From: Acidobacteriota bacterium
GTDB taxonomy: Bacteria > Acidobacteriota > UBA6911 > RPQK01 > JAJDTT01
Assembly: GCA_965217775.1 (NCBI GenBank)
Contig: CBDCJH010000002.1
Location: 3,680,001-3,744,000 of the forward strand
DNA length: 64,000 bases
Direction: 5' to 3'
Both the position numbers and the translations under genes were made by a program. This document shows, piece after piece, positions 33,837 through 37,428 of this stretch; the stretch's first letter is position 1, and each line of letters opens with the position of its first letter. Below the pieces are notes generated by a model. It worked only from the letters and a program-made list of their open reading frames with translations. It did not search any database and had not been told where the DNA came from.

Positions 33837-35261
33837 TCAAGACCGTACGCCGATAGGCAAAAGCTCCACGCCTTCCCCCTCCTCGGGTTTCTTGATGCGA
33901 AACCGCACCGAGGTCACCTCCGATCCATGGGGCCCGAATCGGTTCTTGAAGCCTTCCCGCTGGCCGACCATGAAGATGGAGCCGTCCTCCAGCACGCAGG
34001 CGCTGGGGTAGTAGGACTTGGGATCACACTTGAAGCCGCGCCCCGGCGCCGGTTTCACCCAGGTCTTCCCATTGTCGCGGCTGTAGATCACCTCACCGTT
34101 GTTCGGCACCTTGGGATCGTCGCCGCTGAGTCTGTGGCGGCCCCCAAAGACGACGGCGGTGACTCCGTCGGGCGTCGCCACCACGTCCCCCCGCCGGTAC
34201 AGTTTGGGGCCGAGAAGCTCGCTTCCAAAGTTGGGATCTTCGATGACCGGGTCGGTCAGGAGCAGACGCGGCGGGGACCAGGTCCTTCCGTCGTCGTAGG
34301 ACTGATACCAGGCCGACGTCGGCCGGCAGGGAAAACCGAGGCTGCCGTCCGGCAAGTAGGCAACTGTGCCTTCGTCCATATCGTAGTCATTGCTTCCGAT
34401 CACCGACACGGTCGACCAGGTGCCGCCCTTGTTCTCGGAGCGCATCAGGAGCATGAGCCAACGGGGGTGTTCGCTGGGCCAGCCCTTTCCCCCGGGAATG
34501 GGTGCGGCGGAGGCGAAGAGTTGCAGCGAGCCGTCCCTGCCCTCGAACATGCTGTAGGGAGCATCCATGTCGGCGAGCCCGACGAAGCGTGTCACCTCCT
34601 TCCAGGTGTGGCCACTGTCGTCGCTTCGAAAGATCAGGGTCTTCGATTGCCGGTTGACCGCAATTCGGGCGTACTCGAGGGCATTCATGGGCATCTGGTT
34701 GAAGTAGCCCCAATGGGGTTTCAGCCGGGCTCCCGCAATCATCGTCCCGTCACTCAGTTGCACCACGTCACCGACGTAGTAGGCGCCGGGCACCACCGGA
34801 AACGAGCGGGGCCGGCTCCAGGTCTTCCCCTGGTCCCGGCTGCGGATCCACATCATCCTTCCGCCCTCGGGCGCATCCCAATCCCCGAGCCATTTTCGAT
34901 CCGGCCGTAACAAGCGCTGCCGGGCCTCCGGAGGCATGTCCCAGGGGGTGGGCCAGGAAGCGTGCCAATAGCCGGCCGAGAAGGTCACGAAAAGATCGCC
35001 ATTCTGCAGCCGGCACACCGTCGGCCACCCGCAATAACCGCCGAACCCGCGGAAGGGCTCCGGCGGGTTGACGTCGGGAGAAACGATGATCTTTCGGTAC
35101 TTCTCGAAATCCACCCGGGGCTCGTCGCCCGTAATCAAGGCCATGACAGGTGGAATAGAAGCCGCGGCGGACTTCTTCTTGCCTGCTCCGGCGAGACCGG
35201 TGGTTGCCAATGCGGCTGCTGAAGTGGACAGAACATCCCGGCGGGTCAATTGGACGGCCAT
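33837..35261 (-). CDS. Tat-exported sialidase-like (BNR/Asp-box) protein
   Basis: TRRDVL signal; Asp boxes SRDQGKTW, SDDSGHTW, SENKGGTW, SYDDGRTW, SRDNGKTW. Confidence 0.85.
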   Translation of the reverse strand: MAVQLTRRDVLSTSAAALATTGLAGAGKKKSAAASIPPVMALITGDEPRVDFEKYRKIIVSPDVNPPEPFRGFGGYCGWPTVCRLQNGDLFVTFSAGYWHASWPTPWDMPPEARQRLLRPDRKWLGDWDAPEGGRMMWIRSRDQGKTWSRPRSFPVVPGAYYVGDVVQLSDGTMIAGARLKPHWGYFNQMPMNALEYARIAVNRQSKTLIFRSDDSGHTWKEVTRFVGLADMDAPYSMFEGRDGSLQLFASAAPIPGGKGWPSEHPRWLMLLMRSENKGGTWSTVSVIGSNDYDMDEGTVAYLPDGSLGFPCRPTSAWYQSYDDGRTWSPPRLLLTDPVIEDPNFGSELLGPKLYRRGDVVATPDGVTAVVFGGRHRLSGDDPKVPNNGEVIYSRDNGKTWVKPAPGRGFKCDPKSYYPSACVLEDGSIFMVGQREGFKNRFGPHGSEVTSVRFRIKKPEEGEGVELLPIGVRS

Positions 35262-35353
35262 TTCTTCGCCTCCTCGCTGTGTCGAACGGAAACAATAAGG
35301 GCTTATATACTTGACTAGCCAAGACGTCACACAAGTGTTCGACAATTCTCACC

Positions 35354-36535
35354 ATGAAAGCTCGCGCCACTATCCAGTGCAGAGCCAAGCTGTCCAAGGG
35401 CGGAATCCGGCGGTTGGACTGGGTGAGGTCCATCCTGAATCGGCTGTACAACGCTGCACTGGAGGAACGCAGGACGGCCTGGGAGTCCGAGCAGCGCGGC
35501 GTGACCCTGTACGATCAGATGAAGGGGTTGACCTCCCAGAGGAAGGACGATCCGGAGGGGCTCGGGTCCGTGGCGGTCAAGGCGGAGCGTGGGATGTTGA
35601 TACGGTTGGACCGGGCCTTCAAGGCGTTCTTCCGTCGCTGCAAGGCGGGGGAGAAGCCGGGGTATCCTCGGTTCCGGGCCATTGCCAGGATGGAGACCAT
35701 CGACGTCGTCGACCCGAAGGCGACCCTGGTGAAGAAGCGGGCTCGAGGCTACGCCATCCGGCCCAAGGGCTTCCCGACGATCCGGATCTTTCCGTCCCGG
35801 CCGTTGCCGCACGGATGTCCGTTGAAGGTGTTGCGGATCGTCCGCAAGCCGAACCGGGTGTATGTGGACCTGACCTACGAGGTGGAGAAGCAGCCGCTAC
35901 CGAAGTGCGGGTCTTCGGTGGGGATCGACCTGGGAGTCCGCAAACGGGCGGTGCTGTCCACGGGTGAGAGGATCGAACGGAATCGACGGGACTGGGGAGA
36001 GATCCGAAAGCAGCAGCGAAAGGTGTCCCGGTGCCAGCGCGGGTCGAACCGGCGCCGGAAGCGGGTTCGACGGTTGGCGGCGATTCGGTTCCGGGAGGGA
36101 GTCCGAAGCCGGAACGCGTGTCACCGGGCCACGACCCGGATCGTCCGTGAGCACGGACGGATCGCCGTCGAGAAACTGAACATCCAGGGGATGACCACGA
36201 AGGGCCGGAACAAGAAGGGTCTGAATCGGGAGATCCTCACCCAATCCTGGGGACTTCTCCGCAACCAGCTCCAGCACAAGGCAGAGTGGGCCGGTCGGGA
36301 GTTCGTGGAAGTCAACGCGGCATACACGTCGCAGGACTGCCACCGGTGTGGCGCCAGGAACCAACCTGGGAGAAGCGAGACGTATCGCTGCGCTTCCTGC
36401 GGACTCAAAATGGATCGCGACCACAACGCCGCGATCAACATTCTCAGGGCTGGGGTTTCCGCCCTGGGCGCCGGAACGTGGGGCAGTGGCCCGAGCGTGG
36501 CGCCGGAACTGTGTACTGGAAGGCCCGGTGGCTAG
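35354..36535 (+). CDS. tnpB: RNA-guided endonuclease TnpB
   Basis: LYNAALEER, FFRR...KPGYPRF, RuvC-I GIDLG, RuvC-II AVEKL, YTSQ-CHRC/CASC zinc finger, RuvC-III DRDHNAAINI. Confidence 0.95.
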   Translation: MKARATIQCRAKLSKGGIRRLDWVRSILNRLYNAALEERRTAWESEQRGVTLYDQMKGLTSQRKDDPEGLGSVAVKAERGMLIRLDRAFKAFFRRCKAGEKPGYPRFRAIARMETIDVVDPKATLVKKRARGYAIRPKGFPTIRIFPSRPLPHGCPLKVLRIVRKPNRVYVDLTYEVEKQPLPKCGSSVGIDLGVRKRAVLSTGERIERNRRDWGEIRKQQRKVSRCQRGSNRRRKRVRRLAAIRFREGVRSRNACHRATTRIVREHGRIAVEKLNIQGMTTKGRNKKGLNREILTQSWGLLRNQLQHKAEWAGREFVEVNAAYTSQDCHRCGARNQPGRSETYRCASCGLKMDRDHNAAINILRAGVSALGAGTWGSGPSVAPELCTGRPGG

Positions 36536-36552
36536 CCAAGTATATAAGCCCC
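36445..36552 (+). ncRNA. Candidate omega/reRNA scaffold overlapping the tnpB 3' end
   Basis: Stems CAGGGC/GCCCTG (36445-36466) and nested GGCGCC..ACG..GGGC/GCCC..CGT..GGCGCC (36467-36504); position typical of TnpB RNAs; boundaries uncertain. Confidence 0.45.
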
Positions 36553-36816
36553 AAACAATACGACCGAGCCCGACAAGGTCTCCGGTCCAAGACTTGTCTT
36601 TTATCGCATATCAGGATCCCCGCCTCTATCGGAGCGGTACAGCCAAGGCCTGATGACGGAAACGGAGGTGAGGGTCGGAGCCCGGAAATCACCGATGCAC
36701 CGGGAAGTCAATGTGGATTCGGAGGCGACTCTGGACCGGATTTATCGGGTGGTCTCGGGAGCTTCGTAGATCACGACTGCCATACTTTTCATGCCGGCAT
36801 CGACACCTGCACCTAG

Positions 36817-36974
36817 CAGCCCGTGGCAAAAGTCGCCACGGCATCCGACCGTCCCTGCATCCCGGCGGACTGCGTTGCGATTCGATCACATACTCCCGGT
36901 ATGCTCCCGAATCGCGCCTTGTCCGGCGGGCGCAGGAACGGTCTCGGTGCTCGCGGGACTTTCACCACGGACTG
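36817..36974. mobile_element. MITE flanked by CTAG
   Basis: CTAG at 36813-36816 and 36975-36978; imperfect TIRs CAGCCCGTGGCAAAAGTC / CAGTCCGTGGTGAAAGTC; internal long hairpin. Confidence 0.75.
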
Positions 36975-37428
36975 CTAGTCCGGCGCCAATTGCCATTGCA
37001 ATCCCAGCAAATACCAGCGTGTAAAACACCACACCGGCCCCAGTCAGGTCGCCAGTTCCATTGCCGGCAAAATCGACCAAAGAAACCCCGGCGCCAACTC
37101 CAGCACCGACTGCCGCTCCCATTGCAGCTCCGTTAGCCAGACCATCCTTCGGCTGAACTGAGACTGTCCGGATGGCCTCTTTGGGGATGACCACTCGAAC
37201 GGAACGCGTTTCGATATCGACACCTGAGGCGGACAGACCTTCAAAATTTCCTTCGAGTGGATCCCCATTCTTCAATTCCAACGTGATGCGCGCTCCCAAG
37301 TCCAGATTTGCGACCTTCTCCCAACGTCCCGGAATCACCCCTGCCCGCACCGGCTGCAAGATCAGTCCCGCCAGGATCAATGAGACGCAGTGCATCCGGC
37401 ACGACCGCATCCACTTTCCGTTCATCAT
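36886..37428 (-). CDS. Secreted/membrane hypothetical protein with glycine zipper; 3' end runs into the MITE
   Basis: GGAGGT RBS, signal peptide, NGAAMGAAVGAGVGAG; last ~30 codons are MITE-derived. Confidence 0.65.
   Translation of the reverse strand: MMNGKWMRSCRMHCVSLILAGLILQPVRAGVIPGRWEKVANLDLGARITLELKNGDPLEGNFEGLSASGVDIETRSVRVVIPKEAIRTVSVQPKDGLANGAAMGAAVGAGVGAGVSLVDFAGNGTGDLTGAGVVFYTLVFAGIAMAIGAGLAVRGESPASTETVPAPAGQGAIREHTGSM

What the first reader, a model, noticed from the sequence alone, without database searches (positions are those of the whole stretch)
35290..36560. TnpB as sole cargo of an element with terminal inverted repeats and an 8-bp target duplication (IS1595-like ends, not IS200/IS605 ends)
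Seen: 24-bp inverted repeats (22/24 match) bound a 1,255-bp unit, a perfect AAACAATA duplication flanks it, and tnpB is the only gene. The tnpB stop codon lies inside the right repeat, and all three RuvC acidic residues and the zinc finger are present. Established: IS200/IS605 and IS607 elements, the usual TnpB hosts, have no TIRs and make no target duplication. From my recollection, 8-bp duplications, GG..TTAT ends and passenger genes are typical of IS1595 family elements (ISNwi1 group). Inference: an RNA-guided nuclease was captured by a DDE-type non-autonomous cassette that is mobilised in trans. The intact duplication suggests recent transposition as a unit. TnpB-DDE associations appear in broad surveys, so novelty of this pairing needs checking.
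Basis: partly seen in the sequence, partly recalled or inferred. Interest (0 to 1): 0.9.

Follow-up and report, generated by a model that had tools for sequence, protein, structure and literature searches.

The report
TnpB nuclease riding an IS1595 transposon
A 1,255-base mobile element whose only gene is an RNA-guided nuclease (TnpB) has the inverted ends and 8-base target duplication of an IS1595-type cut-and-paste transposon, so it probably borrows another element's transposase; this kind of pairing is known from surveys, but here it comes with many copies, an empty site and a possible target motif.

Summary
A 1,255-bp unit (35298-36552) has 24-bp inverted ends (22/24) and a perfect AAACAATA duplication. 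Its only gene is an intact 393-aa TnpB whose stop codon lies in the right repeat. A sister species, and a contig of a public run, carry the predicted empty site with one 8-mer.

This Acidobacteriota genome holds 12 more TnpB-only elements of a sister family (85% identical). Eleven of the 13 have perfect, all-different 8-bp duplications. It also holds five copies of a 1,762-bp element encoding an IS1595-family DDE transposase, whose ends match that sister family at 24 of 26 bases.

The same architecture recurs in TnpB relatives at 36-100% identity in Bryobacterales, Caldilineaceae, Arenicellales and others. No transposase was seen in cis in 110 loci. The 3' end holds a covarying RNA structure, as expected of a guide-RNA scaffold.

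New here: in 53 distinct insertions, the base just before the duplication on the tnpB 5' side is G in 49. For other half-sites it is 26 of 91. This looks like a TAM filter, but that is inferred.

TnpB on DDE transposons with inverted ends, and solo copies moved in trans, are already published (PNAS 2023). IS1595 is not named in the text I could read.

The parts
35287..35289 (+). CGG just 5' of the left duplication; the G at 35289 is the candidate TAM base (inferred)
   Evidence: The base before the duplication on the tnpB 5' side is G in 49 of 53 distinct insertions. It is G in 26 of 91 other half-sites.
35290..35297 (.). Left copy of the 8-bp target-site duplication, AAACAATA
   Evidence: A single copy stands in the empty site of G003 and in the X1 contig.
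35298..35321 (+). Left terminal inverted repeat, AGGGCTTATATACTTGACTAGCCA
   Evidence: The terminal GGGnTTATATAC is shared with the IS1595-transposase elements of the genome.
35354..36535 (+). tnpB, 393 aa, intact RuvC triad and zinc finger; the only gene
   Evidence: NF040570, 211.5 bits, cut-off 100; ISDra2 TnpB, E 6.5e-30.
36445..36504 (+). Covarying RNA helices inside the 3' end of tnpB: candidate guide-RNA (omega/reRNA) scaffold, which would run on to 36552
   Evidence: 22 pairs, 10 of them with compensatory changes. 98.1% of cells are paired, against 83.5% in shuffles and 38-46% when the partners are slid.
36529..36552 (-). Right terminal inverted repeat; it contains the tnpB stop codon (36533-36535)
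36553..36560 (.). Right copy of the 8-bp target-site duplication, AAACAATA
36553..36572 (+). Candidate guide-encoding flank (duplication plus right flank); inferred, not shown
   Evidence: By analogy with IS605 TnpB, whose guide is the DNA just past the right end (established knowledge). Here the TnpB 3' end lies 17 bp from the element end.

Best explanation
This is a non-autonomous transposon of the IS1595 family. It has two IS1595-type terminal inverted repeats and one gene, an intact ISDra2-like TnpB RNA-guided nuclease, and it makes an 8-bp target duplication on insertion. It has no transposase of its own. It is moved in trans by an IS1595-family DDE transposase that recognises the shared GGGnTTATATAC ends. 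For the 12-copy sister family the partner is the 1,762-bp element resident in the same genome. The last roughly 110 nt, which overlap the 3' end of tnpB and include the right repeat, are transcribed into a structured scaffold RNA. That RNA runs into the flank and so picks up a guide equal to the duplication plus the right flank. TnpB with this RNA then cuts vacant copies of the same site, so that recombination restores the element; this is a retention or homing module, as in IS605. The near-invariant G just 5' of the left duplication would be the last base of the TAM.

Shown: the anatomy, mobility as a unit, the empty site, the shared ends, the solo state and the conserved RNA structure. Inferred: trans-mobilisation by that transposase (about 0.85), the guide-RNA role of the structure (about 0.7), and homing with the G as TAM (about 0.45).
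For: Anatomy and duplication.

Empty sites.

Copies in the genome: 12 near-full sister copies plus the window copy. Eleven of the 13 have perfect, all-different 8-bp duplications. Ten of the sister copies keep an open frame of 397 codons.

Partner element: five copies of 1,762 bp at 98.2-100% identity. It encodes a protein that passes PF12762 and NF033547, and five of six such elements have perfect 8-bp duplications. The left end of the sister family matches the partner's ends at 24/26 (blastn 25/27 and 23/24).

Within the genus: all 6 genomes with this TnpB also have PF12762 hits, and G003 has neither.

Breadth: the same ends and duplications occur in relatives of 36-100% identity in Bryobacterales/Terriglobia, Caldilineaceae, Arenicellales, a gammaproteobacterial MAG and Boseongicola.

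Solo state: 0 of 110 TnpB loci have an IS1595 transposase within the fetched flanks.

RNA: 22 pairs, 10 compensatory, 0-1 of 500 shuffles reach the observed values.

Flank signature: G at -1 in 49/53 insertions. This compares with 14/53 on the other side of the same elements and 8/19 and 4/19 for transposase-bearing elements (Fisher 1e-14 against all other half-sites, 2e-5 against the transposase elements' left side). Among 19 elements whose terminal 14 nt are identical at both ends, 17 still have the G on the tnpB 5' side, so the ends alone cannot set the orientation.

Self-avoidance: the base before the guide-encoding DNA at the occupied site is always the C that ends the repeat.
Against: The window's own copy shares only the terminal 13 bases with any transposase element of this genome (15/24 over the whole repeat, read), and no partner with its subterminal sequence was found here. 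It may be immobile at present.

The Caldilineaceae genome has 25 TnpB hits and 68 end matches but only a 62-aa remnant of an IS1595 transposase. In G005 the single PF12762 hit carries a stop codon. A resident intact partner is therefore not universal.

No transposition, RNA end or cleavage has been shown. The RNA contigs are weak evidence.

One conserved base is much less than the 4-5 nt TAM usual for TnpB. Transposase-bearing elements also show G at 8/19 on one side, so part of the bias could be target preference of the transposase.

A cut-and-paste DDE element already leaves a break on excision, so the benefit of a homing nuclease is unclear. The 2026 review PMC13565253 makes this point (passages read).

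The single-sequence fold of the 3' end is not better than shuffles (z -1.47).
Confidence: 0.8

Rival explanations
1. The oriented G (and the A that follows) reflects target-site choice by the transposase, or some orientation effect unrelated to TnpB. Under this reading TnpB is simply cargo and the element is otherwise as described.
For: Transposase-bearing elements have G at -1 in 8 of 19 on their left side and A as first duplicated base in 10 of 19. Both figures are above the roughly 31% G and 19% A of this genome, so some preference of the transposase for such half-sites is plausible. Only one base is near-invariant.
Against: The bias is 49/53 on the tnpB 5' side but 14/53 on the other side of the same elements. 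In 19 elements with identical terminal 14 nt at both ends, 17 still show it. The pooled half-sites of transposase elements give 12 G of 38, which is background. The second base upstream differs by lineage: G in 14/23 in the Acidobacteriota genus, T in 10/12 in Arenicellales. That last difference may partly reflect base composition, which I did not measure.
Confidence: 0.35
2. The arrangement is a chance nested insertion: an ordinary IS605/IS1341-type tnpB landed once inside an IS1595-derived MITE, and the pair has no functional link.
For: The window's subfamily is single-copy in this genome. The genome has three weak Y1_Tnp-like hits.
Against: There are 53 distinct insertions with the same architecture in at least five lineages. 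The gene fills the element, with only 56 bp before the start and a stop codon inside the right repeat. No IS605-type ends or Y1 transposase stand beside any copy; the three Y1-like hits lie elsewhere.
Confidence: 0.02
3. TnpB here no longer works as a nuclease for the element. It is an inert or repurposed passenger, for example an RNA-guided regulator like the TldR proteins.
For: No activity data exist. Several copies are decaying: 3 of the G005 copies and 3 of 13 in G000 carry stops or insertions.
Against: The RuvC triad and zinc finger are invariant or nearly so across 16 relatives of 47-100% identity, whereas repurposed relatives typically lose them (established knowledge). Ten sister copies in the genome keep full open frames. 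The covarying RNA structure is kept. The gene always stays inside mobile ends.
Confidence: 0.1
4. The elements are moved by some transposase other than the IS1595-family enzyme, and the resemblance of the ends is convergent or ancestral.
For: In Caldilineaceae (G041) many near-identical copies and deletion derivatives exist without an intact IS1595 transposase in the assembled chromosome.
Against: In this genome the 24/26 identity of the ends and the same 8-bp duplication length are shared with elements that encode the IS1595 transposase. An IS1595 element of a Bryobacterales MAG carries the TTATATACTTGACT subterminal motif of the window's and the Caldilineaceae ends. A remnant of the transposase is present in G041.
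Confidence: 0.07

Closest known systems
DDE-transposase-associated TnpB branches (DDE-1 to DDE-6) and solo TnpBs with the same ends (Altae-Tran et al., PNAS 2023, PMC10691335; passages read)
   Same: TnpB lies inside a transposon with inverted terminal repeats. The TnpB 3' end is close to one transposon end. Solo copies carry ends nearly identical to those of transposase-bearing elements, which the authors read as mobilisation in trans.
   Different: The main text names IS630, and a 2026 review (PMC13565253) lists ISL2, IS630 and IS1031. IS1595, ISXO2 and PF12762 occur 0 times in the PNAS main text. Its supplements, which I could not open, may list it. Here no copy has the transposase in cis (0 of 110 loci), so a survey built on gene neighbourhood could have missed the link.
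IS1341-group / solo-tnpB elements of the IS200/IS605 family
   Same: The element carries tnpB alone, is about 1.2-1.4 kb, and depends on a transposase made elsewhere. The protein is an ISDra2-like TnpB (E 6.5e-30 to 8bf8/8exa).
   Different: IS200/IS605 elements have subterminal hairpins, no inverted ends and no duplication, and insert 3' of a fixed 4-5 nt motif (review PMC13565253). This element has 24-bp inverted ends and an 8-bp duplication. It scores below NCBI's cut-offs for the IS200/IS605 TnpB (160 against 425) and IS607 TnpB (121 against 350) models.
IS1595-family insertion sequences with passenger genes
   Same: The ends begin GGGnnTTAT. The duplication is 8 bp and falls in AT-rich targets. 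The resident transposase element itself carries a passenger ORF (Mrr_cat-like).
   Different: No transposase is present in the element, and the cargo is an RNA-guided nuclease with its own RNA. The subgroup (ISNwi1) rests on recollection only.
Fanzor (eukaryotic TnpB homologues) in TIR/TSD DNA transposons
   Same: An RNA-guided nuclease sits inside a cut-and-paste DDE transposon that duplicates its target. The nuclease must therefore cope with a duplication between the element end and the unique flank.
   Different: Those are eukaryotic or viral, often in cis with the transposase, with short fixed duplications (TA, TTAA) that serve as the TAM (review). Here the host is bacterial, the duplication is 8 bp and variable, and the conserved base lies outside the duplication.

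Membership tests
TnpB (RNA-guided nuclease, Cas12 ancestor) | Sequence membership above curated cut-offs | tested here: met
   PF07282 88.6 bits (cut-off 26.3) and PF01385 63.7 bits (cut-off 30.5). NF040570 211.5 bits (cut-off 100).
TnpB (RNA-guided nuclease, Cas12 ancestor) | RuvC D-E-D triad and CxxC...CxxC zinc finger | tested here: met
   D192, E273 and D354 are invariant and the four Cys at least 90% conserved in 16 relatives. They align to the corresponding motifs of ISDra2 TnpB.
TnpB (RNA-guided nuclease, Cas12 ancestor) | Structured guide RNA encoded at the 3' end and running into the flank | tested here: inconclusive
   A conserved, covarying structure is present. Transcription, the RNA's 3' end and the guide are not shown; RNA-library contigs cover 36362-36554 but prove little. 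There is no Rfam match.
IS200/IS605 family (including the IS1341 group) | No terminal inverted repeats and no target duplication; subterminal hairpins | tested here: not met
   24-bp inverted ends and an 8-bp duplication, with an empty site holding a single 8-mer.
IS200/IS605 family (including the IS1341 group) | Y1 (HUH) TnpA in the element or beside relatives | tested here: not met
   Only three weak Y1_Tnp-like hits in the genome, none at a tnpB locus. The protein is below the NF038281 cut-off.
IS1595 family (as a non-autonomous derivative) | 8-bp target-site duplication | tested here: met
   42 perfect and 11 seven-of-eight duplications in 53 insertions. The transposase-bearing elements give the same length.
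IS1595 family (as a non-autonomous derivative) | Ends shared with an element that encodes a DDE_Tnp_IS1595 transposase | tested here: met
   The sister family matches at 24/26. The window copy matches in the terminal 13 bases only (11/13 and 12/13). A closer subterminal match is found in a Bryobacterales IS1595 element.
IS1595 family (as a non-autonomous derivative) | Encodes the IS1595 transposase (zinc ribbon plus DDE domain) | tested here: not met
   No such gene lies in the element or within the flanks of 110 related loci. It is present elsewhere in the genome at 9 PF12762 loci.
IS1595 family, ISNwi1 subgroup | Subgroup consensus of ends and transposase clade as defined in ISfinder | not testable with these tools
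ISfinder is not available here. 'ISNwi1' occurs in none of the papers searched.
Transposon-restorative homing system (as shown for IS605 TnpB) | A TAM next to the guide-matching sequence at the vacant site and absent at the occupied site | tested here: inconclusive
   G stands before the duplication in 49/53 vacant-site reconstructions, and C in that place at the occupied right junction. No cleavage data.

The most novel reading that the evidence does not exclude
A whole TnpB clade, found in Acidobacteriota, Chloroflexota and Proteobacteria, lives only as a transposase-less hitchhiker on IS1595-type DDE transposons. It has adapted its RNA-guided homing to a transposon that duplicates its target. 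The guide is the 8-bp duplication plus the right flank. The TAM is read from the bases just outside the duplication: ...GG in the Acidobacteriota genus, ...TG in Arenicellales and Caldilineaceae. Only insertions that happen to land next to that motif, in the right orientation, persist. This would be a natural bacterial case of a guide-RNA nuclease servicing a cut-and-paste DDE element, with the TAM visible directly in the insertion-site census.
Probability: 0.4. Interest if true: 0.8.

Novelty: new member of a known kind. Interest (0 to 1): 0.58.

Why it matters
TnpB is the ancestor of Cas12 and is a compact genome-editing nuclease. Its known biology rests on IS605/IS607 elements, which excise without a scar and insert next to a fixed motif that doubles as the TAM. 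How the system can work on a DDE transposon that duplicates a variable target, and whether it brings any benefit there, is treated as an open point in the 2026 review I read.

This locus and its relatives offer a tractable natural case:
- many recent copies and a resident candidate partner transposase;
- real empty sites;
- a conserved RNA scaffold;
- an oriented one-to-two-base flank signature that predicts the TAM and the guide.

If the prediction holds, this clade would also be a source of small nucleases with a very short TAM. If it fails, the finding remains a clean, well-documented example of trans-mobilised TnpB cargo on an IS family not named in the literature I could search.

Tried and rejected
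Rfam scan of 35000-37200 at E up to 1: only a spurious IRES match, no guide-RNA family.

Promoter scan: no sigma-70-like site on the + strand of the element, so I make no statement on promoters.

Single-sequence fold of the last 168 nt: z -1.47, not informative alone. The last ~50 nt before the end could not be aligned reliably across subfamilies, so I make no covariation claim for them.

RNA evidence: metatranscriptome contigs of X17 lie on 35342-36034 (40 differences, so a relative's copy) and on 36362-36554. X16 and X18 give short pieces. Contigs cannot show transcription ends or strand, and DNA may be present in such libraries, so I do not count this as evidence of a guide RNA.

Search for an element with transposase and TnpB in cis: none in 110 loci. 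The flanks were only 1.5-4 kb.

Search for similarity between the 716-bp non-transposase part of the IS1595 element and tnpB: none. It holds a Mrr_cat-like ORF instead.

End-finding for the other IS1595 subfamilies (the G002 family at 57% identity, and the G004 and G008 copies) failed with my simple methods. They are therefore not in the control set of 19.

Rows dropped before the flank counts: elements whose duplication matched at fewer than 7 of 8 positions or whose ends my pattern did not find. Examples are L030, L042, L044, L062, L075, L079, L083, L198, L210, L221, L226, L227, L229, L237, L238, L245, L246 and L200/L205/L219. By eye most of these also show G at that place, but their boundaries are uncertain and I did not count them.

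Literature. Searches: 'TnpB'+'IS1595' (9 papers, none on this pairing, listing only); TnpB/DDE/TIR/TSD; ISL2/IS630/IS1031; ISNwi1/IS1595/passenger; TnpB/omegaRNA/non-autonomous/DDE from 2023. Passages were read in PMC13565253, PMC10711439, PMC10691335 and PMC3627910. Supplements were closed, and the SI of PMC10691335 (Additional Files 10, 11; tables of branches) may already contain this clade.

I did not use the structure, complex, atlas or representative-library tools, because the family assignment was not in doubt.
Full report
**1. What is in the window**

Reading 35100-36760 and the repeat finder confirm the description. Inverted arms lie at 35299-35321 and 36529-36551 (23 nt, 96%). With the outermost base they form 24-nt ends that match at 22 of 24 positions. 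AAACAATA stands at 35290-35297 and 36553-36560, directly outside them, so the bounded unit is 1,255 bp.

The only ORF with a family match is 35354-36535 (+), 393 aa. It passes Pfam PF07282 and PF01385 and NCBI's general TnpB model NF040570 (211.5 bits, cut-off 100). It falls below the cut-offs of the IS200/IS605-specific (160 against 425) and IS607-specific (121 against 350) models. Its stop codon (36533-36535) lies inside the right repeat.

The closest natural solved structure is ISDra2 TnpB (8bf8/8exa/8h1j, E 6.5e-30, aligned over residues 31-373). D192, E273 and D354 are invariant, and the four zinc-finger cysteines are at least 90% conserved, in an alignment of 16 relatives at 47-100% identity.

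**2. The duplication is a real insertion scar**

A DNA search of 41 related genomes with the region and its flanks found, in sister species G003, the left and right flanks adjoining on one strand. The sequence there reads ...TGTGTCGAACGG AAACAATT CGACCGAGCCCGG..., which is one copy of the 8-mer (one substitution) and no element. G003 has no copy of this TnpB and no IS1595 transposase. Independently, one 1,296-nt contig of public run X1 joins window 35289 to 36553, with 8 letters fitting either side. A second copy of the window's subfamily (93% identical over exactly 35298-36553) sits at an unrelated place in G004, with a decayed left end and a 6/8 duplication.

**3. The element is one of a family, and a transposase-bearing partner is present**

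The window lies in a 6.43-Mb, two-contig genome at 62% G+C. Near relatives are titled Acidobacteriota MAGs, and sponge metagenome runs hold parts of the stretch.

A scan for the end motif and blastn show 12 near-full copies of a 1,244-bp sister family. These are 93.5-100% identical to one another and 85.7% identical to the window copy over the interior. One of them is interrupted by a ~160-bp insertion. There are three more fragments. Each sister copy carries only tnpB (391 aa).

Of the 13 elements, 11 have perfect 8-bp duplications, all different. One has 7/8 and one has none.

The same scan found five copies (98.2-100% identical) of a 1,762-bp element plus a 1,531-bp relative. Their 334-aa ORF passes PF12762 (E 1.8e-38), the IS1595 zinc-ribbon model PF12760, and NCBI's IS1595-transposase model (177 bits, cut-off 75). 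Five of the six have perfect 8-bp duplications (with one boundary corrected).

The tnpB-proximal end of the sister family (GGGGATTATATACGTAAGTGCCGAGA) matches this element's ends at 24 of 26 positions, and its other end matches at 19 of 22.

The window copy is less close. Only the terminal GGG(C/A)TTATATAC is shared, and nothing else in this genome carries its subterminal ...ACTTGACTAGCC. A similar subterminal motif (TTATATACTTGACT) occurs in a 1,170-bp IS1595-transposase element of a Bryobacterales MAG and in the Caldilineaceae TnpB elements.

**4. Distribution**

In the genus, 6 of 9 genomes have this TnpB (G000 18 matches, G006 13, G005 6, G004 2, G007 2, G008 1). PF12762 is found in 8 of 9. 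Every genome with the TnpB has at least one PF12762 hit, although G005's single hit has a stop codon. These genomes are kin and are not independent samples.

Further afield, a profile scan of one genome per species kept 80 loci. The GGGnnTTA(T/C)ATA ends with 8-bp duplications appear in:
- Bryobacterales/Terriglobia (51-55% identity);
- a Caldilineaceae genome (44-45%; 25 hits);
- a gammaproteobacterial MAG (39%);
- Boseongicola (40%);
- an Arenicellales genome (36-38%; 18 hits).

Most loci at or below 39% identity (Deinococcus, Alicyclobacillus, Methanoculleus and others) show no such ends with my methods. None of 110 TnpB loci has an IS1595 transposase within the fetched flanks, so the clade is always seen solo.

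Of five distant genomes checked, three have intact IS1595 transposases. The Caldilineaceae genome has only a 62-aa remnant, despite 68 end matches that include 706-, 372- and 222-bp deletion derivatives. The gammaproteobacterial MAG has only fragments. This is the main observation that the simple 'resident partner' picture does not explain.

**5. An RNA structure at the 3' end**

I aligned the last 145 nt of 12 elements from the genus and from Bryobacterales. This gives a consensus of 22 pairs in three helices (window 36445-36504), and 10 of the pairs show compensatory changes. On the stated structure, 98.1% of cells pair, against 83.5% in column shuffles and 38-46% when the partners are slid. 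The covariation score is 0.430 against 0.155, and 0 of 500 shuffles reach it.

The helices lie in the part of the gene that encodes the variable C-terminal tail. This is what a TnpB guide-RNA scaffold should look like. Its transcription and its 3' end remain unshown.

**6. An oriented flank signature**

I oriented every element by tnpB. I kept only distinct insertions with a duplication match of at least 7/8 and ends at least 13/20 alike. This gave 53 insertions, 42 of them with perfect duplications.

| Measure | Count |
|---|---|
| G just before the duplication, tnpB 5' side | 49 of 53 |
| G in the mirror position on the other side of the same elements | 14 of 53 |
| G at that place in 19 transposase-bearing elements, left side | 8 of 19 |
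| G at that place in 19 transposase-bearing elements, right side | 4 of 19 |
| First duplicated base is A (TnpB elements) | 44 of 53 |

Fisher's test gives 1e-14 against all other half-sites and 2e-5 against the transposase elements' left side.

In 19 elements the terminal 14 nt are identical at both ends, and the G is still on the tnpB side in 17 of them. The second base upstream is G in 14 of 23 in the Acidobacteriota genus. It is T in 10 of 12 in Arenicellales, and T or C in 7 of 7 in Caldilineaceae. Genome composition may contribute to this lineage difference and was not controlled.

The conserved base is separated from the element by the 8-bp duplication, so it cannot be an artefact of boundary choice. 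At the occupied site, the base before the right-hand copy of the duplication is always the C that ends the repeat.

I read this as a survival filter imposed by TnpB. The vacant site reads ...G | duplication | right flank, which would be a TAM followed by the guide-matching sequence. The occupied site lacks the TAM. The reading is inferred. The main rival is a target preference of the transposase.

**7. How it most likely works**

Shown:
- a TnpB-only unit with IS1595-type ends that has inserted many times, each time with an 8-bp duplication;
- a resident IS1595 element with near-identical ends;
- vacant sites;
- a conserved RNA structure.

Inferred:
- The IS1595 DDE transposase moves the unit in trans.
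- The 3' end yields a scaffold RNA whose guide is the adjacent host DNA.
- TnpB cuts vacant copies of the site so that recombination restores the element. Vacant copies could be alleles in other chromosome copies, or sites resealed through the 8-bp repeats after excision.

Whether such homing pays for a cut-and-paste element is an open question, and the 2026 review raises it.

**8. Comparison with what is known**

IS200/IS605 and IS607 elements have no inverted ends and make no duplication (review text), so the element is not a member of those families, although its protein is an ISDra2-like TnpB.

TnpB on DDE transposons is published. Altae-Tran et al. 2023 report six DDE-associated branches, all with inverted terminal repeats. 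They also report solo TnpBs with ends nearly identical to transposase-bearing systems, which they read as trans-mobilisation (passages). The 2026 review names ISL2, IS630 and IS1031. IS1595 is not named in those main texts, nor in the 9 papers that contain both 'TnpB' and 'IS1595'.

Eukaryotic Fanzors face the same duplication problem, and there the 5' duplication serves as part of the TAM.

**9. Verdict**

The kind is known, and the IS1595 pairing appears to be a new member of it. What I add is the copy census, the empty sites, the cross-phylum and always-solo distribution, the covarying RNA, and the oriented G. The last of these gives a concrete, testable TAM-and-guide prediction.

Noticed in passing
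window 36813-36978: A ~165-bp MITE-like repeat with ends CTAGCAGCCCGTGG...CCACGGACTGCTAG. It gives about 250 blastn hits in this genome and many copies at 93-99% identity in the other genomes of the genus. One copy interrupts a tnpB element at G000:C2:4647310-4648714.
   Followed up: partly
L151:912-1349 (-), inside the 1,762-bp IS1595 element at G000:C2:445385-447146: The transposase-bearing IS1595 element carries a second open frame of 146 codons. It matches Mrr_cat (PF04471, 27.8 bits) and NA-iREase1 (PF22722, 32.7 bits), so it is a restriction-endonuclease-like passenger.
   Followed up: partly
G041 (Caldilineaceae chromosome; e.g. L074-L083, L240-L251): There are 25 TnpB hits and 68 matches to the element's end, including 706-, 372- and 222-bp internal-deletion derivatives. 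Only a 62-aa remnant of an IS1595 transposase is present. The partner transposase is missing from the assembled chromosome.
   Followed up: partly
window 33837-35261 (-) and 35298: The element's left end lies 36 bp upstream of the likely ATG (35259-35261, minus strand) of a gene for a protein with a twin-arginine-type signal (MAVQLTRRDVLS...). The insertion therefore separates that gene from whatever lay upstream. The ORF finder's 502-aa frame runs into the element.
   Followed up: no
L035, L040, L043 (G005): Three of the six copies of the G005 subfamily share an in-frame TAG, and the only IS1595 transposase hit in that genome has a stop codon. This looks like a family decaying together with its partner.
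   Followed up: no
L176 (G002:C1:4121400-4127400): Two copies of the 1,762-bp IS1595 element stand side by side. They are separated only by an overlapping T/A-rich target (TTTTTAAT / TTTTAATT), so these are adjacent insertions into one hotspot. G002 has 12 PF12762 hits but no copy of this TnpB.
   Followed up: no
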